Below, piece after piece: positions 1-46,739 of a DNA stretch of 47,149 nucleotides (positions within the stretch are counted from its first letter, which is position 1; each line of letters opens with the position of its first letter). The DNA is taken from sequence record MZ501080. One strand, 5' to 3'. The translations under genes were made by a program, and so were the position numbers. The notes beneath the pieces were generated by a model, which worked only from the letters and a program-made list of their open reading frames with translations, had not been told where the DNA came from and did no database searches. Source of the stretch: Escherichia phage JeanPiccard.

Positions 1-507
1 ATGAGCAAAGCAGCATTAAAGATGGGTGAGGGAAATTTCAAGGCACTCTACAACAAGAAGTATGGCGATATTGCTATGGTGGCAATCAACCGTAAGTATA
101 CGCCTGAGGAGGTTTTCGATTTCGCAGTGAGATACTTCTCCTGGGCTGAGGGTGAGGCAATTAAAGCCATTGAGACGGCGGCATTCCGGGGTGTGGTTAG
201 TGAGAGCTTAGTGCACAAGCCTAGAGTGTTCACATTAACCGGCCTGGCACTATTCATGGGTGTTAACATCAATAGATTCGCTCGTTGGCGTGCTGAGGCT
301 GGATACTCTGACGTGATGGAATTCATTGATAACGTAATCTACGAACAGAAATATCAGCTCTGCGTTGCAGGCATTATCAACTCCACCATTGTTGGTAAAG
401 AGCTTGGCATTGATAAGCCGCAGGAGATCACCATTAGCAACAACTCCACAGCCAACGACGTTGATAGCATGAAGGAAGCGCTTGAGTCTGTTATTGGTAA
501 GTTGTAG
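1..507 (+). CDS. terminase small subunit (may be 5'-truncated by window edge)
   Basis: ORF directly upstream of large terminase; HTH-like segment LTGLALFMGVNINRFARW; position in packaging module. Confidence 0.6.
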   Translation: MSKAALKMGEGNFKALYNKKYGDIAMVAINRKYTPEEVFDFAVRYFSWAEGEAIKAIETAAFRGVVSESLVHKPRVFTLTGLALFMGVNINRFARWRAEAGYSDVMEFIDNVIYEQKYQLCVAGIINSTIVGKELGIDKPQEITISNNSTANDVDSMKEALESVIGKL

Positions 508-522
508 CACTTATTGTTAAAA
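505..522 (+). promoter_or_regulatory. dyad motif TAGCACttatTGTTAAAA (family copy a); TAG is the terS stop codon
   Basis: member of repeated TAGCAC-N5-TTG(C/T)TAAA family; followed about 22 nt later by TGaGATAAT -10-like element. Confidence 0.4.
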
Positions 523-575
523 GAAGAGCCCCAATCAGTGAGATAATGGTCCCAATAAACTAACGAGGTGATGAT

Positions 576-9216: not shown

Positions 9217-9221
9217 TTGCA

Positions 9222-9239
9222 TAGCACTTTTTGATAAAG
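9222..9239 (+). promoter_or_regulatory. dyad motif TAGCACttttTGATAAAG (family copy b)
   Basis: motif family member; followed by TATAGTTAACTCATCTAAACGAA leader. Confidence 0.4.
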
Positions 9240-9297
9240 CGTTAATTCAATCTTCCTGTATAGTTAACTCATCTAAACGAAATGAGAGATTAAAGAA

Positions 9298-10255: not shown

Positions 10256-13231
10256 ATGGCAACAAATGAATTAGCCGGAATCACGCTAGCCGTAGACGTA
10301 TCGCAGGTAGATAGGGGAACGCAATCCCTACAGAAGTTCAGGCAGGCTAACCAACAGGCCGCTTCCGGGATTAGTGAATTCATAAACGCTGAGCAGGTTG
10401 CTAAAAACCAGGCGAGAGATACAGCTCGCGCACTTGCTGAGCAACAGGCATCACTGGCTAAGCTGCAAACTGCGATTGATCCAACTGCGGCAAAGTTCCG
10501 TAAGCTGCAAGAGGCGGCCGTAGGTCTTGATAAGGCGTTCGCTGCTGGCGTAGTTCCTGATGAGGAATTTTTCCGATTAGGTGAGGCTCTTGAAACGCAG
10601 AATGCAAAACTTGCGCGTTCACGCGCAGCTTTAACCGAGGAGGGGAGGGCGGCGGCTCAAGCGGCAAAGGAGAAAGCGGCAGCAAAAGCAGCAGCGGATA
10701 GATTTATCGCATCACTTGAGCGACAAGCTCAAGCTGCGACGCTGACTCGTGAGGAGTACTTAAAGCTACAGGCTGCACAGCTTGGTGTTAGTTCTCAGGC
10801 TGCGCCTATTATTGACAGAATCGCTGAGGCTTCAGAGCGAGCAAATGTTCAATTAGCAAACCAAAGCAAGGCTTTTCAGAAGTCCGGGCTAAGTGCCGGG
10901 CAATACAAGAACGCCATTAGCCAACTGCCAGCACAGATTACAGATATTGGAACATCACTTGCTGGTGGCATTCCGATTTGGCTTATTGCAATTCAGCAGG
11001 GCGGACAAATTAAGGATGCATTCGGAGGTATTGGTAACACATTTAGATTCGCGCTGGCTGCACTAAACCATTTTAATGTTGCTGTTGGCGTTTTGGGAGG
11101 CGCACTCGTCGCTCTCGGTATTGGCGCGGCTCAGGCTGAAAGTGAATTCAGGGCATTGAACTCTGCCATTGCATTCTCAAACAACTCGACAATCACTTCA
11201 ATCTCGCAAATTAGACAGTTGGTTAGCTCTGTTTCTGACGCTACCGGCGCCACCAGAGGACTGGTAACCAGCATCGCAACAAGCCTTGTTGAGCAAGGAA
11301 ACCTTACGCTAACGCAGATTGATAAGATTACTAAATCAACAGCAAGATGGGCGCAGTTGACAGGTAAGGATGCAAAGGAGATTACTGGTTACTACAACCA
11401 GATTGCAAGCGACCCAATCCAGGGTTTAGTTGACTTGGATAAGCGCTTTAACTTCCTCACACAGGGGCAGCTGACGACAATCGAAAACCTGAGAAAGACA
11501 AAGGGGGAGGTCGAGGCCGTTACCGCCGCGATTGATATTTTCAGCAAGTCGCAGGAAGCCAACCTTAACGACATTGCAGCTCAATTAACTCCACTTGAGT
11601 TAGCATGGAATGACTTCAAGAAGTACATCTCTGATGTCTGGGATGCAATTAGCCGTAGAACACTAGGTGCTTTAAACCTGTTTGTTGACGTAATAGCAGG
11701 AACAATTGAGCAAATCAGGGTCTTCCTTAACCAGGGTGACGTTCTGATTGGTGAATTCGTAATCAGCGCAACTCAGGCATTGCAGAACATACCTGGCCTT
11801 GATGGTGTTGGTGATGATGTTATCAAGGGGCAGCAGAAGATTATCGATGCCGCCAAGAAGCAAAACCTTGAGCTAGAGAAGTCCATCAGGGAGCGAGATG
11901 CCAGAATCAGAGAGGGAGAGCTTGGTTACGTTAATCGCAGAGAGAATCAGAATACCAATGAGCAATCAGGGACCGATGAGGAATTCGCAAAAAGGAAGAA
12001 GGCACTTCAGGATGAGCTTGACGCGATCAAGAAAAACAGGAAAGAGGAAAATGGGAGGGTTAATGAGCAAAGGGATTTAACAATAGGTTATGAATCTGGC
12101 GTTCTGGCACTTCAGGCTCAACTCAAGGTTCTTCAGGAAAATCGGGATATTGGCGCAGTAATAAGCAATGAGCGCAAGCAGTATCTTCAGGAGGAGGCTA
12201 AATTCAGGATCCTTGAGCAGAGGCAGCTTGATGGCTCGATTACCAAAGAGCAAGCGAGACTTATCGTTGAAAAGGACAAAGTTCTTGAGTTGGCCAAGCA
12301 GAAGGCTGAACTAGGTGATCAGATTGTTTTGCAGGAGCGCGCCAATAAGTTAGCTGAAGATAACCGCAAGAAGATTCTTCAGATTAACAATGAGGCAAAT
12401 AACATTGATTTAGGCGCTGGATTGTCATCTCGAGAGCAGCAGAGAGCCAAAGAGATTCAGGCCCTCCAGTCCAATCAGGTTAATGCTGGTGGCGCACTTG
12501 ATGACGTGGATTTTCAGCAACTCCTCGAAGCAAGACGCAACTTTTACGCTCAGGAGGATGCGCTACGTGAAAACTGGCTCGCTGGCGTGAATCAATCCTT
12601 TGCCAATTGGGCTGAGAGCGCTAAGGATGCATTCTCAATTGCTGGAAGTTTAACCACAACAGTCTTTGAGGGCATTACCGACCAGATTACAAACCTTGTA
12701 ACAACTGGCGAGACAAACTTCAGGGAGTTTACTGTAAGCATCCTTAAGCAGATTGCTAAGATTGCGGCTCAGCTTCTTGTTGTCAAGGCAATTGAGTCTA
12801 GCTTAAGTAGCTTCGGTGGCACTGGTGGCGCTATTGGTTCAATTGCCTCAGCTATAGGTTTTGCTGGTGGCGGCTACACTGGTGATGGCGGGAAGTATCA
12901 GCCAGCAGGAACCGTACACCGCGGTGAGTTTGTATTCACAAAAGAAGCAACAAGCCGAATTGGTGTTAAGAACCTTTACGCGCTAATGAAGGGATACGCA
13001 AACGGTGGCGCTGTAGGTGGTCCATCTGGTTATGCTAATGGCGGTTTGGTTTCTGGTGGGTCAGATGTTAATGTTAGTGGCATCACCGTTAACGTTAATG
13101 GTGGCGTTGGTAGCGACCCAGAACAGGCCAAGGCATTGCAGAGTGGCGTTAAGGCTATCGTTGCGGAAGAAATTGCTCAGTCTTTCCAGCAGGGTGGAAA
13201 AGCGTATGCCTACCTGAGGGGCTTTAACTAA
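10256..13231 (+). CDS. tail tape measure protein
   Basis: 991 aa, Ala/Gln/Glu-rich coiled-coil composition, Gly-rich C-terminus; located after G/GT chaperones. Confidence 0.9.
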
Positions 13232-13249
13232 TAGCACTAAATGGTAAAG
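13232..13249 (+). promoter_or_regulatory. degenerate dyad motif TAGCACtaaaTGGTAAAG (family copy c)
   Basis: motif family member with one half-site altered; followed by TATAAT. Confidence 0.3.
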
Positions 13250-13302
13250 CCAAAAGGATTTGGCTTGCTATAATCAACTCATTAAAACTGTGAGGTGATA
13301 AA

Positions 13303-13779
13303 ATGAACTGGAATGATATTTTCGATTATAGGGATGGTGTTCTTTATTGGAAGATAAGTCCGAGGTCAAGAACCCCAATCGGATCAGTTGCCGGACATTT
13401 ATCAAAGGCTGGCTATATAACAACGTCATACATGAAGAGGGCTCTTCTTGCCCATAGGGTTGTGTGGGAAATGCATAACGGACCAATACCAGAAGGAATG
13501 CAGATAGACCACATAAATCACAACAGAAGTGATAACAGGATTTGCAATTTAAGACTTGCTACTGTTTTTGATAACAATCAAAACATGAGCAGAGGTAAGG
13601 GAAATAGAAGTGGCGTTGTTGGTGTTAGCTGGCATAAGAGCGCAAAAAAGTGGTGCGCTGAGATTCATGCGAATGGCAAAAAGAAATACCTCGGCGTGTT
13701 TGATAGTTTTGATGATGCGGTTCTCGCTAGAAAGAGCGCAGAGTTACATTTTGGTTTTCATGAAAATCACGGAGCATAA
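13303..13779 (+). CDS. HNH homing endonuclease with AP2-like domain (second copy)
   Basis: IDHINHNRSDNRICNLR HNH motif; AP2-like C-terminal part; inserted between tape measure and tail tip genes. Confidence 0.8.
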   Translation: MNWNDIFDYRDGVLYWKISPRSRTPIGSVAGHLSKAGYITTSYMKRALLAHRVVWEMHNGPIPEGMQIDHINHNRSDNRICNLRLATVFDNNQNMSRGKGNRSGVVGVSWHKSAKKWCAEIHANGKKKYLGVFDSFDDAVLARKSAELHFGFHENHGA

Positions 13780-20895: not shown

Positions 20896-20960
20896 TTTTA
20901 AGTCCTTATTAAGTTTTCTCGTTTCGATGTGGTAATGATAACTCATCCCTGCGGATTGTC

Positions 20961-20978
20961 TTTAGCAATTCGTGCTAT
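20961..20978 (-). promoter_or_regulatory. dyad motif (minus orientation, copy d) overlapping methyltransferase stop codon
   Basis: TTTAGCAATTCGTGCTAT is the reverse complement of ATAGCACGAATTGCTAAA. Confidence 0.4.
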
Positions 20979-21651: not shown

Positions 21652-22034
21652 TTTACAATCCTCTCTCGTTGTTTGTGCGACTAACTATACCAGGTTTTGC
21701 GTCTGAGTTTTAGCTATTCGTGCTATTGCATACACGTAACAGATGTAACTTGATGTATACAATCTAATCCGCGGAAAATGATATACGCCAAGTTACGCAT
21801 GGTTACGCTATATTTACATTAAAATATCTATATATATCAACCATTTACTCTTATTATTATTATTATATATATTACTGTGTATATCATGTAACTACCTCTA
21901 TAGAGTGTTCCGGTTGCAATTTTAATATCATGTGGATTTATACAGTGTTGCACGGTGCTATACCAATGCACCCTCAGCAATAAATGATATACACGATATA
22001 CACACTAGTTACATTGAGCTATAGCTGATCTGAG
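21652..22034. promoter_or_regulatory. AT-rich divergent control region 1 (iteron-like repeats; candidate early promoters or origin)
   Basis: no ORFs; (ATT)n tract, GATATACAC tandem repeat, GTAAC/GTTAC and GTATAC repeats, TACACGTAAC; about 75 bp homologous to 40887..40960. Confidence 0.45.
21708..21726 (-). promoter_or_regulatory. dyad motif (minus orientation, copy e) upstream of methyltransferase gene
   Basis: TTTAGCTATTCGTGCTAT; followed on minus strand by TATAGT and leader before ATG 21651. Confidence 0.4.
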
Positions 22035-22379
22035 GTGCCAGAAAACGTAACTAGTGGCAATGCATACATGGAATTACAAGAATTCACACGTAAACTTAAT
22101 AAATTGATAGGCACAAACGATTGGATTCCAGCAAGCCACGCGGATATAGTTAACCCATCGAAAGCAAGCAACCAAATAGATACGAAAATGGGAAAGAAAA
22201 TAGATAGATACTCAGCTCACACCGTAATACTACCCAGCTATGCTCCGGTTTTTATTGGTGTAACTTACGAAGTGGCTCTTAGATTATGCGAGTCATCATA
22301 TGGTAAAGACTGGAAAAACAAATCAATTAGAATAGAGAAGACAACTAGAGAACATATCAAAATCATCGCGGGGGTATAA
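22035..22379 (+). CDS. hypothetical protein (start uncertain)
   Basis: 114-aa ORF with GTG start and no clear RBS; in-frame ATG at 22068. Confidence 0.35.
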   Translation: MPENVTSGNAYMELQEFTRKLNKLIGTNDWIPASHADIVNPSKASNQIDTKMGKKIDRYSAHTVILPSYAPVFIGVTYEVALRLCESSYGKDWKNKSIRIEKTTREHIKIIAGV

Positions 22380-24010: not shown

Positions 24011-24011
24011 A

Positions 24012-24029
24012 TAGCACTTTTTGTTAAAA
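24012..24029 (+). promoter_or_regulatory. dyad motif TAGCACttttTGTTAAAA (family copy f)
   Basis: directly after dam stop; followed by TATAGTTAAAG. Confidence 0.4.
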
Positions 24030-24086
24030 CGAAATTAATGTTTTTCGTTATAGTTAAAGAACACAAGAAAACAATGGGGGTTAGTC

Positions 24087-29142: not shown

Positions 29143-29616
29143 TTACTCTTTAGCTTTTCGTGCTGCTTCGTTGGCGGCCTTGATCTTGCGCCATGATCGA
29201 CACTCTGGCTTGGTGGCTAATTCAGCCTCAGTAACAACGCGCAGCATGTGACGTTTTTTGCATCGTAGTGTAAGCGGTTTTCCGTTACCGTCGAATTGCA
29301 GGTCCGGTCGACAGAATGTAGCGCGAAAACCTTCCCCAGTTCGTTTGTAGTAGTTATGCGACAGTTGAGCGCCACGTGCAGAAATCATACCACGCTTAAA
29401 CCATTCTTCCACGGCCTGAGGAGTTACCTTTAGCTGCTTTGCGATATTCGCCTTTGTGCCGAAGAAATCAAGTAGCATCTCAAGCCGCGCACGTAGCCCT
29501 GCCCTTACTTCATCTTTTAAAACGTAGTAGCCTGAAGGTCGTTTGCGCTTCTTTTTGTCTTCAGTGCGGACGGTTCCGTTATTCCCGTTAATGGTTCGCT
29601 TGTCTACTGCATTCAT
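29143..29616 (-). CDS. HTH DNA-binding protein (putative transcriptional regulator)
   Basis: helix-turn-helix-like segment ANIAKQLKVTPQAVEEWFKRG; basic termini. Confidence 0.55.
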   Translation of the reverse strand: MNAVDKRTINGNNGTVRTEDKKKRKRPSGYYVLKDEVRAGLRARLEMLLDFFGTKANIAKQLKVTPQAVEEWFKRGMISARGAQLSHNYYKRTGEGFRATFCRPDLQFDGNGKPLTLRCKKRHMLRVVTEAELATKPECRSWRKIKAANEAARKAKE

Positions 29617-29629
29617 TTCATCACCTCAA

Positions 29630-29648
29630 TAGCATTTTTTGTTAAAAG
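29630..29648 (+). promoter_or_regulatory. dyad motif TAGCATttttTGTTAAAAG (family copy h) in divergent intergenic region
   Basis: one mismatch from family consensus; upstream of helicase gene. Confidence 0.35.
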
Positions 29649-29717
29649 TCATTCTGGTTTAATGGTATTATTGTAATCAATTAAACGCTACAAGACAATT
29701 TTTATAGGAATTTAGAT

Positions 29718-31712
29718 ATGTTACCTATCGAGAAGCTGGTTGCAAACTTTGATAAAGAAAGAATTAAACAGATTCAGAAAGATTACCAGTTTGGCGAGAT
29801 AACCCCTTACGAGTTCCAGTGCGTTACATTTGATGCAATTGGGAAGGCTATTGGCAAGTATGAGGCCCCATTTATCGCAGATCTTTCTGTGTCTGCTGGT
29901 AAGACAATCATTCTTGCCATGATTGGTAAGCGCATGGAGCAATTGGGATTGCCTTACATGGTTCTATCTCGCCAGTCAGAGATAATCAGCCAGAACTCAG
30001 AGGAACTTCGTAACTTCGGCATCCGTAACAGCGTATATTGCGCCGGCCTTAACGTTAAATCAGTTTATTACCCAACCATAGTTGCTAGTGAGGGCACGGC
30101 AGCCAACGGCTTGTTTAAGGGGCTTGGTGACTACGTCCCTGCAGTTATCGCAATAGACGAATGTCACATGGTCGATCACATGGATATTGTAGAAGCTGAG
30201 GAGAACGAAGAAACATTTGAGCAAATGAGCACAAAGAAAGGAGAAATGGTATTTAAAGATGGCGTTAATACCGGATTGCTTGGCACTGGTCGTGCGCAGT
30301 ACACGCTAATCATCACCGAAATGAAAAGGCGATGCCGCGAGAAGTACGGTCGCGAGCTTAGAATTTTTGGCCTAACTGGCAGCCCGTATCGAAATAACGA
30401 TCACATAGTGGTTAGCAATCCAAATGTTCGTGGATTCTGGCGCAAGACAGTGATTCAGGTGCCAACTAATTACCTTGTTGATTTGGGATTTGTTGTGCCT
30501 ACTGTTTATGGCGAGGTTGGCGATTTGGGTTACGATCTTAGTGAGTTTGTGCCCGATGGGAACGATGGCGTGAAGGACTTTGGCAAGAAAGAAATGGATG
30601 CAATGGAAGAGAAAATCCACCAAAGCCAATCCATGACGCAAAAGATTATGCAATTTGCTGCAAAGTTCATGGAGACTCGTAACTCGGCTCTTGTGACATG
30701 TTCTGGTAAGCGTCACTGCGAGGAAGCGGCAGCGTCGCTTCCTGATGGTGTGACATGGGCTATAGTAACTGACTCTACAGGTGAGAAAAAGCGCCGTGAG
30801 ATTCTGGCTGATGCATATGAAGGTAAGTATAAATTCATATTTCAGATAGGTTGCCTCACAACCGGCGTTAACGTTCCACCATGGGATACATCAATCATTC
30901 TGCGCAAAGTTGGTAGTATCACGCTTCTTATTCAGCTTTTGGGTAGAGGAATGCGAATTCTTAAGAAGAAGCATAAGGAAATGGGAATGGTTAAGGATGA
31001 TCACGTGGTGCTTGACTTTGCTGGTACTCTTGATGACATGGCAGAATTGTACTTTGACCCAATCATAGAAGAAGTTCAGGACCAGAAGTTCAAATCGTCA
31101 CGAAAAAGTGGCGACAATCCAAGGGTATGTCCTGCCTGCGGCTATGAGAACTCTCCTTTTGCTCGTCGCTGCAATAACGTAATTGATGGGAAACGTTGTG
31201 AGCATTTTTTTAAATTTCGCTTGTGCGAAGACATAGAGGACCAGCAGACAAAAGTTACTATTAAGAAAGGTTGTGGTGAGAAGAATGATATTGCCGCTAA
31301 AAACTGCAGGTGCTGTGGCGAGATGCTTATTGACCCTAACGCAAAGTTGTCTGGAAAGATGTATCGACAAGGGGATTGGTTGAGAGTTTACGGATTCAGT
31401 ATTGGGTTAACTAAAAACCAAACCGGAATCGTTGCTCGATATGAAATCATGGCTCACAGCGGGGATAGGTTTGTTGCTTACGAAACTTTCTTTCCAGAGA
31501 GTGATCATCGCGTCTGCTCTGTAAAGTGGAAGGCGTTTTGCCAAACCCACATCGCCAACAAAACAGAAGCATTTCGCATCGGAAGACTTCGAAACACTAA
31601 AATGATTATGACCAATGCAAGTCAATTCCGTGAACCTATGAGAGTGACGCACAGAAAAAACCAGAAAGGTCAGGATATTATCGCAAATAAATCTTTTACT
31701 ATGGAGGATTGA
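29718..31712 (+). CDS. ATP-dependent DNA helicase (SF2-like) with C-terminal zinc-ribbon region
   Basis: Walker A SAGKT, Walker B/DExH-like IDECH; C-terminal CPACG..C..CRCCG cysteine clusters. Confidence 0.75.
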   Translation: MLPIEKLVANFDKERIKQIQKDYQFGEITPYEFQCVTFDAIGKAIGKYEAPFIADLSVSAGKTIILAMIGKRMEQLGLPYMVLSRQSEIISQNSEELRNFGIRNSVYCAGLNVKSVYYPTIVASEGTAANGLFKGLGDYVPAVIAIDECHMVDHMDIVEAEENEETFEQMSTKKGEMVFKDGVNTGLLGTGRAQYTLIITEMKRRCREKYGRELRIFGLTGSPYRNNDHIVVSNPNVRGFWRKTVIQVPTNYLVDLGFVVPTVYGEVGDLGYDLSEFVPDGNDGVKDFGKKEMDAMEEKIHQSQSMTQKIMQFAAKFMETRNSALVTCSGKRHCEEAAASLPDGVTWAIVTDSTGEKKRREILADAYEGKYKFIFQIGCLTTGVNVPPWDTSIILRKVGSITLLIQLLGRGMRILKKKHKEMGMVKDDHVVLDFAGTLDDMAELYFDPIIEEVQDQKFKSSRKSGDNPRVCPACGYENSPFARRCNNVIDGKRCEHFFKFRLCEDIEDQQTKVTIKKGCGEKNDIAAKNCRCCGEMLIDPNAKLSGKMYRQGDWLRVYGFSIGLTKNQTGIVARYEIMAHSGDRFVAYETFFPESDHRVCSVKWKAFCQTHIANKTEAFRIGRLRNTKMIMTNASQFREPMRVTHRKNQKGQDIIANKSFTMED

Positions 31713-31713
31713 T

Positions 31714-32133
31714 ATGAAAATTACAGATAAGGTTGATTACATTGAGTTTTACCCAGGCCCTGTTAATTCATGCCCTAAAGAGGATGACGAACAAATCTTT
31801 TGCTCTGATTGGGTTAAGTATAACTATCCAGACATGGTGTTTTTCCACTGCGTGAATGAGGGTAAGAAAACAATTGGACAAGCAAGAAAAGACCAGGCTA
31901 AGGGTTTATTGAAGGGCGTATCTGACTGCATGTTTCTGATACCTGAATCTATCCGAGGCAAATACCCTTTCGGAGCCATAGAGCTAAAGAGGGCAGGAAA
32001 AACACAGGCAAGCCCAGTCAGTGACGAACAGAAGTCCTTCCTGAAAAGCGTAAGAGAATCAGGCGGCTTCGCGGCTGTAGCCTATGGTCGCGAGGGTTTT
32101 CTGGCAGCATTCAAAGAAATGATTTCAAAATAG
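31714..32133 (+). CDS. VRR-NUC domain nuclease
   Basis: 139 aa; segment GAIELKRAGKTQASPVSDEQKSFLKSV typical of VRR-NUC proteins; coupled to helicase. Confidence 0.6.
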   Translation: MKITDKVDYIEFYPGPVNSCPKEDDEQIFCSDWVKYNYPDMVFFHCVNEGKKTIGQARKDQAKGLLKGVSDCMFLIPESIRGKYPFGAIELKRAGKTQASPVSDEQKSFLKSVRESGGFAAVAYGREGFLAAFKEMISK

Positions 32134-32148
32134 CACGAATTGCTAAAG
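32131..32148 (+). promoter_or_regulatory. dyad motif TAGCACGAATTGCTAAAG (family copy i); TAG is the VRR-NUC stop
   Basis: exact 17-mer TAGCACGAATTGCTAAA shared with copies j, p, q. Confidence 0.45.
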
Positions 32149-32211
32149 GTATTTCGCAGGGATGCGATATAGTTACCCCATCGAAACGAAACACTAAAAG
32201 AGAGAAACAAA

Positions 32212-32453: not shown

Positions 32454-32459
32454 AAATAG
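32412..32459 (+). pseudogene. truncated 5' remnant (15 codons) of small ORF duplicated at 32723..32881
   Basis: MRVVVVNWKTGEDS then premature TAG supplied by the dyad motif. Confidence 0.5.
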
Positions 32460-32474
32460 CACGAATTGCTAAAC
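32457..32474 (+). promoter_or_regulatory. dyad motif TAGCACGAATTGCTAAAC (family copy j)
   Basis: sits exactly at the junction where the duplicated segment ends. Confidence 0.45.
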
Positions 32475-32531
32475 TATGACGCATGGAAGCGTGTATTATC
32501 AACTCATCGAAAAGAAACTAGGAGAGAAAAA

Positions 32532-33102: not shown

Positions 33103-33284
33103 TTGGCATCTGCGTAAAAACGAATGGGCAATTTACACTACTCGAGGATTACGAAATCAACTCTCATTCAGATGAGGTAACAGTGTTTAGCGATGATGGA
33201 TGCTATTGGTTCCTTAGTTATCAAGGTGATGGCTACTACGGATGCATTGATTCAAACGGAAAAGAAGTTAGTTTCTTAGTCTAA
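33099..33284 (+). CDS. hypothetical protein
   Basis: 61 aa from ATG 33099 (GGAGG RBS). Confidence 0.45.
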   Translation: MIGICVKTNGQFTLLEDYEINSHSDEVTVFSDDGCYWFLSYQGDGYYGCIDSNGKEVSFLV

Positions 33285-33303
33285 TAGCACTTTTTGTTAA
33301 AAC
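33285..33303 (+). promoter_or_regulatory. dyad motif TAGCACttttTGTTAAAAC (family copy k)
   Basis: immediately after stop codon of upstream gene. Confidence 0.4.
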
Positions 33304-33359
33304 TAAAATCCACGGATGGATTATATTAAGCACATAAACAACGCAGAGGATTTTGAATA

Positions 33360-34067: not shown

Positions 34068-35198
34068 ATGGCAACCGCAAAAATCACCAACGAACAATTG
34101 CGCGAAGAGTTAGCAAATGGCATGACCAACAAGGCAATCGCAGAGAAGTACGGAATGAACATTCGCAACGTTGAATTGCGTCGCAGTAAATTAGCTAAAC
34201 AAGGCGAAGGGCATGGTCGCGATGTAAGCAACTTAATCCCTCAGGGCTATGCAGTTAAAGGCGTCTCCAGCTTAATTGGTGCTGATGGCGAGATTAAGCA
34301 ACAGTGGGTTAAATCAGATATCGACAAGGAGAAGCAAGAAGAGATGATGCTTCAGGCAATTCAGGCCCTAACTGATGAGTTGCCGCGTGAGAAAGCTAAA
34401 GCTTTAAGGGTTGGTTTATGGGAAGATACTTTAAGCCTTTACCCCGTGTTCGACCTCCACATTGGAGCAATGGCTCATCATGCTGAGTGTGGTGAGAACT
34501 ATAGTACTGAAATCGCTGAGAGAGTTCTTAATGATTACTTTGATTACGCGGTTGCAAAGGCCCCCAACTCCAAGAAAGCTGTATTGCTGATTGGGGGTGA
34601 CTTCCTTCACTCTGACGGAATGGAAGCGGTAACACCAACCAGTCGTCATGTTCTTGATCAAGATAGCCGTTATCACAAACTTGTTTACGTAGCAGTGCGA
34701 GCGACACGTCGAGCAATTAGCCGTATGCTTGATAAGCACGCCGAGGTTGAGGTTCAGATTATTCCAGGTAACCACGATCTCTCAGGTATGATTTGGCTTC
34801 GTGCTGCAATGGCAGCTTTCTATATGGATGAGCCTCGAGTTAATGTTGATGCGTCCCCCGCTGCGCTTCACGTAACGCAATTTGGGAAGACGCTGCTTGG
34901 TTACTGCCATGGGCACGAACTCAAAAAGCCTGATACCCGACTATCAGCACTGGCTCGTGACCATCGCAAAGCATTTGGTGAATCAGAGTATGTTTACACC
35001 CATTCAGGCCACTATCACCATCAAACTATTACGGAAGGAAATCTGGGTATTGATGAATCACACGGCCAGCTTGGAGCGAAAGATGCGTACAGTGCTAACG
35101 GAGGTTATCGCTCTTACCGACAGGCTTCGGTGATAATTTATAGTCCTGAGTTTGGTGAGATTGGACGATTTACTTGCCGCCCGGAAATGTTTAGTTAA
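34068..35198 (+). CDS. calcineurin-like metallophosphoesterase with N-terminal HTH-like domain
   Basis: phosphoesterase motifs GDFLHSD and GNHD plus His-rich C-terminal HSGHYHH; N-terminal GMTNKAIAEKYGMNIRNV resembles an HTH. Confidence 0.65.
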   Translation: MATAKITNEQLREELANGMTNKAIAEKYGMNIRNVELRRSKLAKQGEGHGRDVSNLIPQGYAVKGVSSLIGADGEIKQQWVKSDIDKEKQEEMMLQAIQALTDELPREKAKALRVGLWEDTLSLYPVFDLHIGAMAHHAECGENYSTEIAERVLNDYFDYAVAKAPNSKKAVLLIGGDFLHSDGMEAVTPTSRHVLDQDSRYHKLVYVAVRATRRAISRMLDKHAEVEVQIIPGNHDLSGMIWLRAAMAAFYMDEPRVNVDASPAALHVTQFGKTLLGYCHGHELKKPDTRLSALARDHRKAFGESEYVYTHSGHYHHQTITEGNLGIDESHGQLGAKDAYSANGGYRSYRQASVIIYSPEFGEIGRFTCRPEMFS

Positions 35199-35216
35199 TA
35201 GCACTTTTTGCCTAAC
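35199..35216 (+). promoter_or_regulatory. degenerate dyad motif TAGCACttttTGCCTAAC (family copy l)
   Basis: directly after stop of phosphoesterase gene; followed by ATAATTACCACATCGAAACGAA leader. Confidence 0.3.
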
Positions 35217-35282
35217 GCATGCCGTAGAAATGCGGCATAATTACCACATCGAAACGAAATGAACTAAACGAGGAAACACAAA

Positions 35283-38593: not shown

Positions 38594-38667
38594 TACTTCT
38601 CTCCGTATTGTTTTTGAGAGGCCATTATATCAACGACCTCTTATAAAGCATTATCAATTTGTGCTAT

Positions 38668-39376: not shown

Positions 39377-39416
39377 TTTTCGTACCCCTCCCGTTTCGAT
39401 GAGATTAATATACAGG

Positions 39417-39435
39417 AAAAGCCCCTAAGGGCTTT
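39417..39435 (-). terminator. terminator hairpin (minus-strand operon)
   Basis: hairpin AAAGCCCttaGGGGCTTT with flanking T/A runs. Confidence 0.45.
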
Positions 39436-39450
39436 AGCAATTCGTGCTAT
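39433..39450 (-). promoter_or_regulatory. dyad motif (minus orientation, copy n)
   Basis: TTTAGCAATTCGTGCTAT is the reverse complement of ATAGCACGAATTGCTAAA. Confidence 0.4.
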
Positions 39451-40523: not shown

Positions 40524-41230
40524 TTATTTCTCCTTTCCTCTCGTTTCTAGGACTGAATCATAGCAACCAACCACTGATAGGTCATTAGCAAAAAGTGCTA
40601 TTCGTTAGATTTATGGATTGTTGCAGATATTGAAATTATTATCATGATTATTGCACATATAGCAATATTGCTTCAGATGCAATGATGTTTTTGATTGTTG
40701 CGGATTGAGCAATGAAGTGGTGGGGGAGTGAATGAAAGATGGATGGACTAACATACAAGTTGATTTTGACTCCCGATAACCTATCCTGTGGTATACACGT
40801 AACCGCCGTATACTCAGTGTCGTCACAAAAGTTAGTGGACACTAACCTACGTTTTTTACGCCAATATACACTCGATATACAATATAATATCTATATATAT
40901 CAACCTTTTACTTTATTATTATTATTATTATTATATATATGTATACCGTGTATACCGGTCATGGATGGAATAGTTGATATGTTCCGCGCAGATATTCTGA
41001 CACTTGTCAGAAAGGGATGACATTGTAGGAATAAAAAGGCACATATATAGGAAATATCCTCAAAAATCTGTACACAGTGGATACGGCAGGTTTACAACCA
41101 GTGCCGGAGCGGGCTTGAGAGGCAAAATGCGTATCCATGATAAAATATACTAAAATATACATTGACCGACACGTAAATAGGTGGCAATATAGCAATCACT
41201 GAAACGAAGTAAACCAAACGAGGTATTAAC
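40524..41230. promoter_or_regulatory. AT-rich divergent control region 2 (homologous to region 1)
   Basis: no credible ORFs; shares ATATCTATATATATCAACC(A/T)TTTACT(C/T)TTATTATTATT core, TACACGTAAC and GTATAC repeats with 21652..22034. Confidence 0.45.
40585..40601 (-). promoter_or_regulatory. dyad motif (minus orientation, copy o)
   Basis: TTAGCAAAAAGTGCTAT is the reverse complement of ATAGCACTTTTTGCTAA. Confidence 0.35.
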
Positions 41231-41779: not shown

Positions 41780-42306
41780 TGTTTGATTTCAACGAAGAAA
41801 AGCTGACAGATGAGCAGGTCATGAGTATTGCGAAGCAGGATGGGATTCCCCCGCTACGGGTTGCAATCAATGCAAACGGGTATCGTCATGTTCAACACCT
41901 CTGGAGTCATCCTGATGCGTCATCAATCCACAAGGGTGAGGCTGTTGAGGTTCTGCTGACAGCGATAAGGACTGAATCTATAGCTCGCAGGGGAGTTGTT
42001 GGCTTACAGAAGTCTTATGACCTAATTAGGAAGCTAAAGAGGTTTAAAGGTGACAATGACGGGCTAATGGAGAGGATTAAGGACGAAATGATTCCAGAGC
42101 TAGAGAAAGCGAATCTCGTTTGCCTCATTGGAGATAAGATTTATGTCCACCCGGCTATCATTGAGGAGTCCTGGCAACCCAACTTCAAAACTTACGAAGG
42201 TGATCACACTAGTAGACTACCATACCACTTGCGGTACAGTGAGGCGGAGGTGGAAGAGGCTATTGAGTTCTACCGGAAGACTAAATCACTCCTGAATGGC
42301 GAATAG
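41779..42306 (+). CDS. domain-deleted paralog of the P-loop ATPase (N- and C-terminal modules only)
   Basis: MFDFNEEKLTDEQVMSIA..PPLRVAINANGYR and CLIGDKIYVHP match the ends of 37010..38593; no Walker motifs. Confidence 0.55.
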   Translation: MFDFNEEKLTDEQVMSIAKQDGIPPLRVAINANGYRHVQHLWSHPDASSIHKGEAVEVLLTAIRTESIARRGVVGLQKSYDLIRKLKRFKGDNDGLMERIKDEMIPELEKANLVCLIGDKIYVHPAIIEESWQPNFKTYEGDHTSRLPYHLRYSEAEVEEAIEFYRKTKSLLNGE

Positions 42307-42321
42307 CACGAATTGCTAAAC
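42304..42321 (+). promoter_or_regulatory. dyad motif TAGCACGAATTGCTAAAC (family copy p); TAG is the stop codon
   Basis: exact consensus copy. Confidence 0.45.
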
Positions 42322-42376
42322 AATGGATCGGGTAGTCAGCTATGATTACCCTATCAACAACGAAGAGGAAATGAAG

Positions 42377-42586: not shown

Positions 42587-42846
42587 AACGTTTAATGACA
42601 TGCATGACCATTATTGCGGCAATTATTGCTCTTACTGGTTGCGAGAAAGCACCGGAGGTTCAGATTCAGTCAGGTGAATTCAATGTGGAGCGTCTATTCA
42701 CAGTGGATGGATGTACCGCCTACCGATTCCGAGATAGCGGTAAAGCCGTCTACTACACAAATTGCCATGGCAGTACGCAGAGTGAGTACAAGTCCGGCAA
42801 GGTCACGAAACAAGAAATAGTTCAGACAAATCGCACGAATTGGTAA
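42583..42846 (+). CDS. lipoprotein
   Basis: signal peptide MKRLMTCMTIIAAIIALTG followed by Cys (lipobox LTGC); 87 aa. Confidence 0.55.
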   Translation: MKRLMTCMTIIAAIIALTGCEKAPEVQIQSGEFNVERLFTVDGCTAYRFRDSGKAVYYTNCHGSTQSEYKSGKVTKQEIVQTNRTNW

Positions 42847-43028
42847 AAGGGGATTCATCCTGACTGGTATAATCCAACGCATCAACCAAATGAATGGAAG
42901 TTAAGTGACGATATACGAACATAAATTCAGTAGCAGGGGTATTGATATGCTCCTGCACTATGTAGACGAAAAATACGCAAAGCTAATGCTTAAGACGCAT
43001 GGCGGCACAATAACGAGGATTAACATAA

Positions 43029-43646: not shown

Positions 43647-43647
43647 A

Positions 43648-43665
43648 TAGCACGAATTGCTAAAC
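43648..43665 (+). promoter_or_regulatory. dyad motif TAGCACGAATTGCTAAAC (family copy q)
   Basis: exact consensus copy directly after kinase stop. Confidence 0.45.
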
Positions 43666-43719
43666 CAGCTCCGGCGGGTTCTGTTATAGTTAGTTCACAC
43701 CAAACGAGAGGAAAGATAA

Positions 43720-44140: not shown

Positions 44141-44283
44141 TTTACATCCACACTTACTACACTGGCAAGTTCAATAGCGTTAAGCACGTTCGGGTTTATG
44201 AGGATTTTAAAGAAGCATTCAAGCAGCAGGAGGTTCTTGGTGGAGTTGTCCAGGAATGTGAAATTCTAGAAGAATACAAATAG
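44137..44283 (+). CDS. hypothetical small protein (48 aa)
   Basis: ATGA overlap with upstream stop; stop TAG supplied by dyad motif. Confidence 0.35.
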   Translation: MIYIHTYYTGKFNSVKHVRVYEDFKEAFKQQEVLGGVVQECEILEEYK

Positions 44284-44299
44284 CACTAATTGTTAAAAC
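44281..44299 (+). promoter_or_regulatory. dyad motif TAGCACtaatTGTTAAAAC (family copy r)
   Basis: followed by hairpin TGGGGTAA..TTACCCCA enclosing TGATATAGT and CATCGAAACGAA leader. Confidence 0.4.
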
Positions 44300-44353
44300 A
44301 ACATTGGGGTAATTTGATATAGTTACCCCATCGAAACGAATGAGGACAAACAG

Positions 44354-45086: not shown

Positions 45087-45225
45087 ATACGTTATCGCAT
45101 GTGAACGACTGGTCTTTGATATGAAGACTTTTCACTGGTTCATCATTAAGGATTTGATTAAGCCTTATAAGCAGGGTGTGACACCTGAGGCATTTATCAA
45201 GAACTTCTATAGCACTAAAAGCTAA
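45073..45225 (+). CDS. hypothetical small protein (50 aa)
   Basis: ATGA overlap with upstream ORF. Confidence 0.3.
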   Translation: MSFTEYVIACERLVFDMKTFHWFIIKDLIKPYKQGVTPEAFIKNFYSTKS

Positions 45226-45282
45226 ACGCAGTCGCCAGGGATGGCATATAATTACCCCATCAACACAACGAGAGACTGAGAA

Positions 45283-46077: not shown

Positions 46078-46155
46078 GCTCTGCTAGCTCAACAGGACAG
46101 CAGCAACGACCTTCTAAGTCGTAGGTTACTGGTTCGAATCCAGTGCGGAGCGCCA
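46078..46155 (+). tRNA. tRNA-Arg(TCT): tRNA-Arg (anticodon UCU), CCA encoded
   Basis: manual cloverleaf: acceptor GCTCTGC/GCGGAGC (one G-U pair), anticodon stem ACGAC/GTCGT with loop CTTCTAA, T-arm ACTGG-TTCGAAT-CCAGT, discriminator G, then CCA. Confidence 0.7.
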
Positions 46156-46660: not shown

Positions 46661-46739
46661 GTCTGTATGTTGACAATAATATATAGGTGCATTAGTATTA
46701 ACTCATCGGGGCGACCCACTAACCAGAAGGAGATTCAAA

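What the first reader, a model, noticed from the sequence alone, without database searches (positions are those of the whole stretch)
32166..32194. Conserved transcribed leader (TATAGTTACCCCATCGAAACGAA-like) downstream of motif-promoters
Several cassettes share a -10-like TATAGT/TATAAT followed by (T)TACC(C/A)CATC(G/A)AAACGA(A/G), e.g. 32166-32194, 35236-35262, 44316-44340, 45249-45270, and on the minus strand upstream of 39376. Degenerate versions precede genes at 9260, 13270, 24040 and 41195. In some copies the -10 sits in the loop of an inverted repeat (TGGGGTAA...TTACCCCA at 44304-44333). This conserved 5' UTR could be a translation enhancer, an RNase processing site or a regulator target.
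Basis: seen in the sequence. Interest (0 to 1): 0.5.

Follow-up and report, generated by a model that had tools for sequence, protein, structure and literature searches.

The report
Conserved start-site motif of phage promoters
The repeated TACCCCATCGAAACGA sequence is the downstream half of about 19 promoter cassettes in this T1-like coliphage, the place where host RNA polymerase is predicted to begin each transcript, and the same start-site sequence sits at the same distance behind ordinary host-type promoters in many unrelated phages (including T7's A3 promoter) for a reason not yet known.

Summary
TACCMCATCRAAACGA occurs 5 times in the window, against 0.03 expected. A graded version follows nearly all of about 19 intergenic modules in this Rtp-like (Drexlerviridae) phage. 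Each module reads: ATAGCACnnnTTGnTAAAA, 21 nt, G at -14 plus TATAGT, TACCyC, CA, TCGAAACGAA, then SD and ATG.

The motif is locked to the -10 hexamer and never occurs alone. It breaks down as discriminator (TACCCC), start site (C-1/A+1) and initial transcribed sequence. In about half of 143 modules from eight genomes, the discriminator and start region is also the 3' arm of a co-varying hairpin that holds the -10 in its loop.

The motif is not lineage-specific. CATCGAAACGA follows canonical TTGAC-N17-19-TAnnnT promoters in at least 120 viral contig stretches. A permuted motif gives 0 hits and a 3-nt offset gives 0 hits. The phages include T7-like, T4-like and temperate groups. T7 A3, whose start site is mapped, is TACCACAT-GAAACGA.

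The closest known analogues are the PeSL promoter/stem-loop cassettes of T4-like phages and the transcribed "downstream regions" of T5/T7 early promoters. Why the sequence is conserved is unresolved; promoter escape, the RNA 5' end and a recombination-linker role are all open. I rate it a new variant of a known kind, of moderate interest.

The parts
32130..32191 (+). Focal module. Upstream element ATAGCACGAATTGCTAAAGG 32130-32149. Spacer hairpin TCGCA(32154-58)/TGCGA(32163-67). -10 TATAGT 32168-32173, with G at -14 (32166). Discriminator TACCCC 32174-32179. Predicted start A at 32180. Initial transcribed sequence ATCGAAACGAAA 32180-32191. ATG at 32212.
   Evidence: (score 30.4)
35198..35259 (+). 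Module. Upstream element 35198-35217. Spacer hairpin ATGCCG..CGGCAT, overlapping the first bases of the -10 (-11.7 kcal/mol). -10 CATAAT 35236-41. TACCAC 35242-47. Predicted start 35248. ATCGAAACGAAA 35248-59. ATG 35283.
44280..44341 (+). Module with the -10 in a hairpin loop. 5' arm TGGGGTA 44305-11. -10 TATAGT 44318-23. 3' arm TACCCCA 44324-30 (discriminator plus +1). Leader ATCGAAACGAAT 44330-41. ATG 44354.
   Evidence: (-14.2 kcal/mol)
45209..45270 (+). Module. -10 TATAAT 45247-52. TACCCC 45253-58. Predicted start 45259. Variant leader ATCAACACAACG. ATG 45283.
20917..20978 (-). Upstream element 20959-78. -10 TATCAT 20935-40. TACCAC 20929-34. Predicted start 20928. ATCGAAACGAGA 20917-28. 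Gene start 20895 (Cor-like lipoprotein).
39389..39450 (-). Module. -10 TATATT 39407-12. AATCTC. Predicted start 39400. ATCGAAACGGGA 39389-39400. Gene start 39376.
32456..32517 (+). Module. -10 TATTAT 32494-99. CAACTC. Predicted start 32506. ATCGAAAAGAAA. ATG 32532.
9221..9282 (+). Module in the late region. -10 TATAGT 9259-64. TAACTC. Predicted start 9271. ATCTAAACGAAA. ATG 9298.
38606..38667 (-). Module with the -10 in a hairpin loop. 5' arm AGAGGTC 38635-41. -10 TATAAT 38624-29. 3' arm GGCCTCT 38617-23. One G.T pair. Leader is not consensus. Helicase gene start 38593.
   Evidence: -12.9 kcal/mol
42303..42364 (+). Module. GGGTA/TACCC stem around -10 TATGAT 42341-46 (-15.9 kcal/mol). Leader ATCAACAACGAA.
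504..565 (+). Weaker module driving the HNH cassette 576-1052. The cassette, module included, is absent from the closest relative.
13231..13292 (+). Module driving the HNH cassette 13303-13779. Leader ATTAAAACTGTG. The cassette is absent from T145P1 and from Rtp, starting at the beginning of the module.
21666..21726 (-). Module with a degenerate leader (CACAAACAACGA).
24011..24072 (+). Module with a degenerate leader (ACACAAGAAAAC). A synteny breakpoint lies inside it.
29629..29689 (+). Weak module before the helicase gene. Its ATAGCAT motif lies in the 5'UTR of the divergent HTH regulator gene 29143-29616(-).
33284..33345 (+). Module. Leader ATAAACAACGCA.
40539..40601 (-). Module. Leader CTAGAAACGAGA.
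42830..42891 (+). Module. The CATC is displaced by 1 nt.
43647..43708 (+). Module. Leader ACACCAAACGAG.
41162..41209 (+). Canonical sigma-70 promoter. TTGACC 41162-67, N17, CAATAT 41185-90, 7-nt discriminator, then leader-like ACTGAAACGAAG from 41198. Gene at 41231.
   Evidence: read directly
22145..22168 (+). TATAGT + TAACCC + ATCGAAAGCAAG with no upstream ATAGCAC motif. It is the only strong -10+leader site in the window that lacks that motif.

Best explanation
The motif is the downstream half of the core promoter in a repeated intergenic promoter/stem-loop cassette. It is not a free-standing RNA element.

Each cassette runs from the stop codon of the upstream gene to the ATG of the next. 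Its parts, in order, are:
- an upstream element aATAGCACwwwTTGyTAAAAc at -51..-31;
- a spacer of fixed length;
- an extended -10 (G at -14, then TATAGT at -12..-7);
- the discriminator tACCyC at -6..-1;
- the start site C-1/A+1;
- the initial transcribed sequence (A)TCgAAACgAA at +1..+11;
- a short, U-poor, unstructured 5'UTR, then SD and ATG.

Host sigma-70 RNA polymerase is inferred to start at the A of CATC, so transcripts begin pppAUCGAAACGA. In about half of the cassettes the discriminator and start region is also the 3' arm of a hairpin whose loop holds the -10. This hairpin can only form in read-through RNA, or in single-stranded DNA, coming from the upstream gene. By analogy with PeSLs it would insulate or terminate upstream transcription, or stabilise the upstream transcript.

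The same start-site and initial transcribed sequence is used by canonical sigma-70 promoters of many unrelated phages. I infer that it acts at initiation or promoter escape, or as the exact 5' end of the RNA, and that exchange of promoter cassettes between phages spreads and homogenises it.

Shown: the anatomy, the fixed register, the co-variation and the distribution. Inferred: the start site (from geometry and from T7 A3) and the function of the conserved transcribed bases.
For: Architecture and register. 143 of 167 upstream-motif hits in 8 Drexlerviridae genomes have a -10 at a fixed offset, 120 of them exactly. G at -14 occurs in 114 of 143. Downstream counts are C-1 99, A+1 117, A+5..+7 about 102, C+8 72 and A+10/+11 about 90. 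An independent set of 314 unique IMG/VR modules gives the same consensus, and CATCGAAACGAA is the commonest 12-mer (40 copies).

Anchoring to the -10. 137 of 153 good copies sit at the exact offset.

Never stand-alone. All 18 exact copies of CATCGAAACGA, and 16 of 22 copies with one mismatch, follow a -10 and the upstream motif. In 1.1 Mb of other phage loci, 128 of 130 copies follow a -10 at the exact offset; the other two are 1 nt off.

Distribution across phages. A permuted motif gives 0 hits and N8 spacing gives 0 hits. N4 gives 8 and N6 gives 32. This mirrors the known start-site window of sigma-70 polymerase.

T7 comparison. T7 A3 reads TACGAT-GTACCAC-A(+1, annotated at 750)TGAAACGACAG. 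T7 A1 reads ...CAGCC-A(+1, annotated at 498)TCGAGAGGG. In other T7-like contigs the A3-type promoter carries the full CATCGAAACGAC.

Downstream targets. The motif precedes tRNA genes and non-coding leaders as well as ORFs.

Hairpin. 41 of 143 modules have a stem scoring at least 6 between -31..-13 and -6..+3, against 5.2 on average (maximum 12) in partner shuffles. The figure is 97 of 314 against 11 in IMG/VR. 72 of 143 folds span the -10. The region -31..+4 has mean z = -2.5, whereas +5..+39 is unstructured.

Cassette behaviour. A complete module sits in front of a native gene in T4-like phages that show no detectable homologue of the Drexlerviridae HTH regulator. In RB43 and Fraggle the same gene and leader sit behind different upstream halves, with the junction just upstream of the -10.
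Against: There are no transcript 5'-end data for any Drexlerviridae phage, so the start site is inferred.

Sigma-70 polymerase is not known to read sequence beyond about +2. A purely DNA-level reason for conserving +3..+11 is therefore not established.

The pattern is close to my own chance estimate in 596 Gb of bacterial genomes (57 hits). It is evidently not simply 'the best initial sequence' for the host polymerase.

The consensus is graded, and the Gs at +4 and +9 are weak. Part of the signal may be an A/C-rich, U-poor composition rather than a specific site.

The TTGnTA of the upstream element lies 22 bp from the -10, so how the upstream element works is unknown.

Strand asymmetry of the hairpin is contradictory: the MFE favours the sense strand, while wobble-pair counts do not.
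Confidence: 0.6

Rival explanations
1. Recombination linker or mobile promoter. The conserved start-site and leader patch, together with the rest of the cassette, is kept mainly because it provides short homology at which gene cassettes are swapped. The swapping would occur within and between co-infecting phages, as proposed for PeSLs. Gene conversion and horizontal transfer would then keep the copies alike, rather than any biochemical role of the sequence.
For: The identical 11-mer occurs in T1-, T4-, T7-like and temperate phages but is near my chance estimate in bacterial genomes. RB43 and Fraggle have the same gene and leader with different upstream promoter halves. A Drexlerviridae-type module lies in front of a native T4-like gene. 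8 of 27 synteny breakpoints against the closest relative, and 7 of 41 against Rtp, fall in or within 30 nt of modules, against about 5% expected. HNH cassettes carry their own module. PeSL crossovers were mapped between the -10 and the ATG (PMC2839356).
Against: About a quarter of all gene junctions carry a module, so the breakpoint enrichment largely disappears if the null model is 'any gene junction'. An 11-16 bp patch is short for homologous exchange. The linker idea does not explain the strict register to the -10 (0 hits at +3 nt). It also does not explain why this part is conserved across families rather than the -35 or the spacer.
Confidence: 0.3
2. 5'-terminal RNA element. What matters is that the transcript begins exactly pppAUCGAAACGA. 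This is a U-poor, unpaired 5' end. It could resist 5'-end-dependent decay (RppH, RNase E). It could avoid non-canonical capping. Or it could mark phage transcripts for, or protect them from, a host or phage factor.
For: The register to the -10 follows the start-site distribution (N4 8, N5 at least 120, N6 32, N8 0), as expected if the RNA end must be exact. T makes up only about 9% of +5..+12. The +5..+39 region is unstructured, with mean MFE -1.7. The motif is phage-enriched and not a host promoter feature. It works in front of ORFs, tRNAs and non-coding RNAs alike.
Against: No factor is known that reads such an end. The discriminator part (TACCyC) is conserved in Drexlerviridae even though it is not transcribed. 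The graded consensus tolerates many A/C substitutions.
Confidence: 0.25
3. The motif is a leader-RNA regulatory element specific to this phage: a translation enhancer, an RNase processing site or the target of a phage regulator.
For: It lies between the -10 and the SD in about 19 cassettes. It is A-rich and unstructured.
Against: It is anchored to the -10, not to the SD, and the UTR is 18-40 nt. It is never found inside operons or away from a promoter. Six of its 16 bases precede the predicted start. The same motif precedes tRNAs and non-coding RNAs. It occurs in phages that share no detectable regulator. It lacks the U-containing RNase E preference, a judgement I make from memory of the consensus.
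Confidence: 0.1
4. Sigma-dependent promoter-proximal pause or antiterminator loading site, like the -10-like AACGAT in the initial transcribed region of lambda PR'.
For: The leader contains AACGA, as lambda PR' does according to my memory of that sequence. T1-like late regions are punctuated by terminators. Some temperate-phage copies are followed by a short terminated leader.
Against: No hexamer within CATCGAAACGAAA has both the A at position 2 and the T at position 6 that sigma region 2 requires. I checked this directly on the sequence. No Q-like gene was identified.
Confidence: 0.05

Closest known systems
PeSLs (promoter-early stem-loops) of T4-like phages RB49/phi1, PST/T4 and nt-1/KVP40 (Arbiol et al. 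2010, PMC2839356; Comeau et al. 2014, PMC4122927)
   Same: [quoted passage not shown] Both contain a sigma-70-type early promoter plus a stem-loop. The stem-loop is most often between -35 and -10 or overlapping the -10, is G-run/C-run rich and includes G-T pairs. Both concentrate in front of small accessory ORFs and at indels. Conservation spans the whole 60-100 bp.
   Different: Here the host is a siphovirus family (Drexlerviridae). There is no -35 at 17 bp; instead there is a specific 20-bp element whose TTGnTA lies 22 bp from an extended -10. The start-site and initial transcribed sequence is itself strongly conserved and shared across phage families, which the parts of the PeSL papers I read do not mention. 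Promoter, terminator and mini-circle activities are untested here.
Phage T7 early promoters A3 and A1 for E. coli RNA polymerase
   Same: T7 A3 is TACGAT-GTACCAC-A(+1)TGAAACGACAG. The window's 20978/35198 modules are TATCAT/CATAAT-TACCAC-ATCGAAACGA. That is 15 of 16 identical, apart from a one-base indel. T7 A1 starts ATCGAGAGGG after ..GCC. The start sites are annotated in the T7 record. In other T7-like contigs the A3-type promoter carries the full CATCGAAACGAC.
   Different: T7 A promoters have canonical -35 hexamers and 7-nt discriminators, and they occur once per genome. Here there are about 19 copies with a different upstream half.
Downstream sequence region (+1..+20) of T5/T7 early promoters (Kammerer, Deuschle, Gentz & Bujard 1986; cited from memory)
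   Same: This is a transcribed part of strong phage promoters that shows homology between promoters. It was shown to affect promoter strength at a late step, promoter clearance.
   Different: The T5 consensus is different (for example ATAAATTTGAGAG in PN25). No experiment exists for the CATCGAAACGA type.
21-nt direct repeats aaATAGCACnnnTTGnTAAAA of phage TLS, also noted in T1, Rtp and Rogue1 (PMC11447400, 2024)
   Same: This is the upstream element of the modules described here. The reported position, about 76 nt upstream of start codons, equals 50 nt to +1 plus a UTR of about 26 nt.
   Different: That paper treats the repeats as isolated elements of unknown role (stoperator, enhancer or UP element). 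It reports only three sigma-70 promoters in TLS. The section I read does not mention the fixed-distance extended -10, the hairpin or the conserved start-site motif.
Hairpin promoters of phage N4 virion RNA polymerase
   Same: A hairpin is an integral part of a phage early promoter.
   Different: N4 hairpins have 5-7 bp stems with 3-nt loops and are read by a phage-encoded single-subunit polymerase. Here the loop is 8-14 nt and contains a sigma-70 -10, and no phage polymerase is encoded.

Membership tests
Sigma-70 extended -10 promoter | A -10 hexamer close to TATAAT, with A at position 2 and T at position 6 | tested here: met
   143 of 167 upstream-motif hits have such a hexamer at a fixed offset. 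In the window the hexamers are TATAGT, TATAAT, CATAAT and TATCAT.
Sigma-70 extended -10 promoter | TG (chiefly G at -14) one base upstream of the hexamer | tested here: met
   G at -14 in 114 of 143 and 252 of 314 modules. T at -15 in 64 of 143.
Sigma-70 extended -10 promoter | Pyrimidine/purine start site 6-8 nt after the hexamer | tested here: met
   C-1 and A+1 lie 7 nt after T-7 in 99 and 117 of 143 modules. The spacing profile across viral contigs is N4 8, N5 at least 120, N6 32, N8 0.
Canonical sigma-70 promoter (-35 plus -10) | TTGACA-like hexamer 16-19 bp upstream of the -10 | tested here: not met
   TTGnTA lies exactly 22 bp upstream. A canonical scan finds no excess, 41 against 37.4 expected, and misses the modules.
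Any promoter | Transcription demonstrably initiates there | not testable with these tools
   I found no 5'-end data for Drexlerviridae. The only support is analogy to the mapped T7 A3 and A1 starts.
PeSL | [quoted passage not shown] | tested here: met
   The motif's ATAG or TAA supplies or abuts the upstream stop codon at 504, 13231, 24011, 32130, 33284, 35198, 42303 and 43647. SD and ATG follow 18-40 nt after +1.
PeSL | Stem-loop between -35 and -10, or overlapping the -10, with co-varying arms | tested here: met
   72 of 143 folds span the -10, 27 lie just upstream and 9 overlap it. Partner-shuffle control: 41 observed against 5.2.
PeSL | Near-consensus -35/-10 early promoter with an AT-rich upstream block | tested here: not met
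   There is no -35 at 17 bp. The upstream block is a specific GC-containing motif.
PeSL | Association with indels and accessory ORFs | tested here: inconclusive
   Breakpoints are enriched against a whole-genome null (8 of 27 and 7 of 41 against about 5%), but not clearly against a gene-junction null.
PeSL | Measured promoter activity, terminator activity and mini-circle formation | not testable with these tools
   Needs reporter assays and inverse PCR.
PeSL | Resident in T4-like myoviruses | tested here: not met
   The window is a Drexlerviridae siphovirus. Single copies of the same module do occur in RB43-, KP15- and Fraggle-type T4-like phages.
Intrinsic (rho-independent) terminator | GC-rich hairpin immediately followed by a U-tract | tested here: not met
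   Only 5 of 72 hairpins that span the -10 have at least 4 T in the next 8 nt. 16 of 27 spacer hairpins do, because the T-rich -10 follows them. Four such hairpins are annotated as terminators in the T1 record.
Sigma-dependent pause element (lambda PR' type) | A -10-like hexamer (A at position 2, T at position 6) in the initial transcribed region | tested here: not met
   No hexamer within CATCGAAACGAAA satisfies both positions (direct reading of the sequence).
Known RNA families (Rfam 15) | A match at the gathering threshold | tested here: not met
   The only hit in the window is a tRNA at 46078-46152. There were no hits in five temperate-phage loci that carry the motif.

The most novel reading that the evidence does not exclude
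CATCGAAACGA at +1 is a pan-phage 'cassette head'. It would be a short sequence that unrelated phages of enterobacteria and their relatives (T1-, T4- and T7-like and temperate phages) place exactly at the transcription start of host-polymerase promoters. Two functions are possible. It may give phage transcripts a defined 5' end with a special fate, such as protection from decay or shut-off, or recognition by a common host factor. Or it may serve as a universal short-homology linker that lets promoter-less or promoter-bearing gene cassettes be exchanged between unrelated phages. The -10-in-the-loop hairpin would then be part of the same exchange and insulation device.
Probability: 0.15. Interest if true: 0.75.

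Novelty: new variant of a known kind. Interest (0 to 1): 0.5.

Why it matters
For T1-like phages, the result turns the unexplained 'direct repeats' of the TLS/T1 literature into a complete promoter model. That model comprises an upstream element, a fixed spacer, an extended -10, a start site and a leader. It predicts about 19 transcription starts per genome in phages where standard promoter finders see almost none, which should improve annotation and engineering of these common fermentation contaminants and therapy candidates.

More generally, an 11-nt start-site and initial-transcribed motif is shared at single-nucleotide register by unrelated phages and is scarce in bacterial genomes. That points to a selective force on the first ten transcribed bases that current promoter models do not capture. 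It also gives a simple, testable handle on two older questions: what the transcribed 'downstream region' of strong phage promoters does, and whether conserved linker sequences drive modular exchange between phages.

Tried and rejected
- Literature. Searches for Drexlerviridae or T1 start-site and RNA-seq data returned nothing relevant. The Rtp genome paper is not held. Searching for the motif string found only unrelated primers.
- Canonical -35/-10 scan. No enrichment, and it does not detect the modules.
- Rfam. No family matches.
- TTGCTA as a normal -35. Rejected, because the spacing is a constant 22 bp, and the hexamers at 17 bp are not -35-like or -10-like.
- Strand of the hairpin. The MFE favours the sense strand (-9.6 against -7.5). 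Direct stem and wobble counts do not, and are reversed in IMG/VR. The comparison is confounded because the 3' arm is constrained by the discriminator consensus. I left this inconclusive.
- Hairpins as canonical terminators. Mostly no U-tract.
- Breakpoint enrichment as proof of recombination. Significant against a random-position null but not convincing against a gene-junction null.
- Sigma-dependent pause element. No valid hexamer.
- Hfq (ARN)n, IHF and Dam-site readings of the leader. Inspected by eye, no fit.
- Antisense copy elsewhere that could encode a pairing sRNA. None; all hits are in the sense orientation within modules.
- Upstream-motif hits in large non-Drexlerviridae contigs. Mostly chance hits without a leader, apart from the KP15/RB43 type.
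- Correlation of leader strength with the central triplet class of the upstream motif (TTT, GAA, AAA). None.
Full report
WHAT THE WINDOW IS. The window is an almost complete genome of an Rtp-like (Veterinaerplatzvirus/Rtpvirus, Drexlerviridae, "T1-like") coliphage. The best match is 89.7% identity to T145P1, and Rtp matches at about 85%. The gene order matches Rtp, T1 and TLS.

CHECKING THE OBSERVATION. TATAGT-TACCCC-ATCGAAACGAAA lies at 32168-32191. TACCMCATCRAAACGA with up to 2 mismatches occurs 5 times against 0.03 expected. Aligning everything downstream of the upstream motif ATAGCACnnnnnGCTAA (23 hits against 4 expected) shows one architecture in about 19 intergenic sites. It reads: ATAGCACnnnTTGnTAA, exactly 21 nt, TATAGT-like hexamer, TACCnCATCgAAACGA-like sequence, then SD and ATG. 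A -15..+12 matrix trained only on other genomes picks 14 window sites above every shuffle, and 13 of them carry the upstream motif at the right distance.

ANATOMY ACROSS THE FAMILY. In eight genomes from several Drexlerviridae subfamilies and genera (window, Rtp, T1, TLS, Klebsiella GH-K3, phiEB49, Henu7, haarsle), 143 of 167 upstream-motif hits have a -10-like hexamer at a fixed offset, 120 of them exactly. The information profile has four blocks:
- an upstream block at -51..-31;
- G at -14 in 114 of 143, which marks an extended -10;
- the -10 hexamer;
- then C-3 (82), C-1 (99), A+1 (117), T+2 (79), C+3 (73), A+5..+7 (about 102), C+8 (72) and A+10/+11 (about 90).

An independent sample of 314 unique modules from IMG/VR gives the same profile, and CATCGAAACGAA is the commonest 12-mer with 40 copies. 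92 of 143 leaders score above the 99th percentile of random 12-mers. The score distribution piles up at the maximum with a graded tail, and it does not depend on the central-triplet class of the upstream motif.

WHAT THE MOTIF IS TIED TO. It is tied to the -10. Of 153 modules with at least 9 of 11 matches to CATCGAAACGA anywhere from -6 to +35, 137 have it at the exact canonical offset. The distance to the start codon, in contrast, ranges from about 18 to 40 nt. It never occurs alone: all 18 exact copies, and 16 of 22 one-mismatch copies, in the eight genomes follow a -10 and the upstream motif. Operon-internal genes have ordinary SD contexts without it. With T-7 as the last base of the hexamer, the conserved C and A fall at -1 and +1, 7 nt downstream, which is the usual sigma-70 start position. 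The 16-mer therefore divides into discriminator (TACCCC, not transcribed from this promoter), start site (CA) and initial transcribed sequence (TCGAAACGA...).

THE HAIRPIN. The best stem between -31..-13 and -6..+3 scores at least 6 in 41 of 143 modules. When 3' partners are shuffled among modules, the mean is 5.2 and the maximum 12. In IMG/VR the figures are 97 of 314 against 11.

The arms co-vary between copies:
- GGGGTA/TACCCC;
- GGGGTT/AACCCC;
- AAGGCC/GGCCTT;
- AGGGGA/TCCCCT;
- AAGGGC/GCCCTT;
- AAGGCAC/GTGCCTT;
- GATGAAGTG/CACTTCATC.

The 3' arm almost always starts at -6. Folding -31..+6 gives a stable hairpin spanning the -10 in 72 of 143 modules. A hairpin lies just upstream of the -10 in 27, overlaps it in 9, and is absent in 35. 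The region -31..+4 has mean z = -2.5, whereas +5..+39 is unstructured.

Only 5 of the 72 spanning hairpins are followed by a T-rich tail, so most are not canonical terminators. Several spacer hairpins, however, are annotated as terminators in the T1 record. Whether the structure acts in sense RNA is unresolved, because the MFE favours the sense strand while wobble counts do not. In the window itself, modules 44280, 38667(-), 42303 and 35198 have strong hairpins, and 32130 and 45209 have short spacer hairpins.

BEYOND DREXLERVIRIDAE.
1. A complete module sits in front of a native T4-like gene in Klebsiella and Enterobacter myoviruses. It includes a GGGATA/TATCCC stem and ATCGAAACGAAA. It is also present in RB43, RB16 and KP15. 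No T4-like record appeared among the listed hits, strongest to weakest, for the Drexlerviridae HTH regulator.
2. In RB43 the orthologous gene has a different upstream half, TTGCTT-N17-TACAGT, but the same ACACA-CATCGAAACGAA. A neighbouring promoter is TTGACC-N17-TATATT plus the same leader. The Fraggle/RB43 alignment loses homology just upstream of the -10.
A composition-matched permutation gave 0 hits, and the true motif moved 3 nt gave 0 hits. With N4 there were 8 stretches and with N6 there were 32. This distribution follows the start-site window of sigma-70 polymerase.
4. In 1.1 Mb of these loci, 128 of 130 copies of the 11-mer follow a -10 at the exact offset, and the other two are 1 nt off.
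5. The contexts include T7-like genomes, T4-like and larger myoviruses, and temperate-phage early regions with repressor genes and operator repeats. Some cassettes are PeSL-style, with the -35 in a GGGG/CCCC hairpin loop. In others the next gene is a tRNA or a short terminated non-coding RNA.
6. In T7 itself, A3 reads TACGAT-GTACCAC-A(+1 at 750)TGAAACGACAG and A1 reads ...CAGCC-A(+1 at 498)TCGAGAGGG. In other T7-like contigs the A3-type promoter carries the full CATCGAAACGAC. The experimentally mapped T7 starts coincide with the A that I predict as +1.
7. In 596 Gb of bacterial genomes the same pattern gives only 57 hits. These are scattered over many phyla, with a minority in Enterobacterales. 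That is close to my own rough chance estimate of about 13 or more. The motif is thus phage-associated and is not a general feature of host promoters.

HOW IT MOST LIKELY WORKS.

Shown:
- the composite anatomy;
- the single-nucleotide register to the -10;
- the absence of stand-alone copies;
- the co-varying hairpin;
- the cross-family distribution.

Inferred:
- Host sigma-70 holoenzyme uses the extended -10 and starts at the A of CATC.
- The conserved +2..+11 acts at initiation or escape, or as the exact 5' end of the transcript.
- The hairpin, present only in read-through RNA or single-stranded DNA, insulates or terminates transcription from the upstream cassette, or protects the upstream transcript's 3' end. 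This is the role proposed, and partly shown, for PeSL stem-loops (PMC2839356).
- Cassette exchange spreads and homogenises the element.

The role of the upstream ATAGCAC...TTGnTAAAA element remains open. It is centred near -42, is pseudo-palindromic (TAGCA-N5-TGCTA) and lies 22 bp from the -10. One candidate reader is the conserved Cro-like HTH protein (window 29143-29616). That gene has a canonical promoter, and one of the motifs lies in its own 5'UTR. Retention of the module in T4-like phages without a detectable homologue of that protein argues for a host factor or the polymerase itself. A resemblance to the Lrp consensus is recalled from memory and is only a lead.

RIVAL EXPLANATIONS. A phage-specific leader-RNA function (translation enhancer, RNase site or regulator target) is disfavoured for three reasons: the anchoring to the -10, the tRNA and non-coding contexts, and the cross-family spread. 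A lambda-PR'-type sigma pause element fails, because no hexamer has both A at position 2 and T at position 6. Two rivals stay alive. One is a recombination-linker or mobile-promoter role. The other is a 5'-terminal RNA role. Both are compatible with the best explanation and may coexist with it.

COMPARISON WITH WHAT IS KNOWN. The upstream half was published as 21-nt "direct repeats" of unknown role in TLS, and was noted in T1, Rtp and Rogue1 (PMC11447400). The section I read does not connect them to a -10, a hairpin or a start-site motif, and it reports only three sigma-70 promoters. The overall design matches PeSLs (PMC2839356, PMC4122927), except for the missing -35, the specific upstream element, the host family and the conserved start region. 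The start region matches T7 A3 and A1, and conceptually it matches the transcribed "downstream region" of T5/T7 promoters (Kammerer et al. 1986, cited from memory). I found no description of CATCGAAACGA as a shared motif. The accessible library is incomplete, however, and the T1 (2004) and Rtp (2006) genome papers could not be read.

VERDICT. This is a real, non-random element. It is not a novel regulatory RNA. It is the discriminator, start site and initial transcribed sequence of a PeSL-like promoter cassette. The unexpected part is that the same start-site sequence is used in exact register by unrelated phages and hardly at all by bacteria. I classify it as a new variant of a known kind, with interest about 0.5.

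Noticed in passing
window 41162-41209 and 46670-46712: Two canonical sigma-70 promoters: TTGACC-N17-CAATAT and TTGACA-N17-TAGTAT. Their start regions resemble the module leader (ACTGAAACGAAG; TAACTC|ATCGGGGCG). They may be the factor-independent immediate-early promoters of the two arms.
   Followed up: partly
window 22145-22168 (also Rtp L001 about 28420-28445): A strong -10+leader site (TATAGT TAACCC ATCGAAAGCAAG) with no upstream ATAGCAC motif. It lies inside the annotated ORF 22035-22379 (rtp46 in Rtp). Either it is an internal promoter or the gene really starts at the in-frame ATG at 22188.
   Followed up: no
window 21730-22030 and 40830-41160: AT-rich non-coding stretches between divergent gene arms. 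They are full of short repeats (GATATAC(A/G)C, GTTACGC twice, TATATA runs). They could be an origin, a pac site or an early-control region.
   Followed up: no
window 29143-29720: The Cro-like HTH regulator gene (weak P22_Cro Pfam hit) has a canonical promoter, TTGTCT-N17-TACAAT, at 29698-29670(-). The ATAGCAT motif of the divergent helicase module (29629) lies in its 5'UTR. T1 and TLS have the same arrangement. This suggests autoregulation, and that this protein may read the upstream motif.
   Followed up: partly
window 504-1052 and 13231-13779: Two HNH endonuclease cassettes each carry their own promoter module. Both are missing from the closest relative (T145P1), from the start of the module to the end of the gene. 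Mobile endonuclease genes appear to travel with the cassette promoter.
   Followed up: partly
L008 2503-2584 (Klebsiella phage Fraggle_ER53); L009 9909(-), 9593(-), 10473(-) (RB43): T4-like myoviruses carry a complete Drexlerviridae-type module, and also canonical or Mot-box-like promoters with the identical leader, within a 1-kb cluster of small genes. In RB43 and Fraggle the same gene sits behind different upstream promoter halves.
   Followed up: yes
L204, L145, L158, L144 and similar temperate-phage contigs: Downstream of a CI-like repressor gene, and of promoters flanked by operator-like repeats, lies a conserved RNA of about 65 nt. It starts AUCGAAACGAAACAUCGA... and ends in a hairpin plus U-tract. 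No ORF follows directly and it matches no Rfam family. It may be an unknown early leader, an antitermination RNA or an sRNA.
   Followed up: partly
L323 and L331 (contigs of about 147-149 kb): The same promoter and CATCGAAACGAA start lies directly in front of a tRNA-like sequence (GCAGTAGCTCAG...). The motif is therefore used for non-coding genes as well.
   Followed up: no
window 46078-46152: A tRNA gene (Rfam RF00005, 55.5 bits) among the small early genes.
   Followed up: no
window, upstream motifs (for example 32131-32145): TAGCACGAATTGCTA fits the E. coli Lrp consensus YAGHAWATTWTDCTR at 11-12 of 15 positions. The consensus is recalled from memory, so this is an untested lead for a host factor reading the upstream element.
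   Followed up: no
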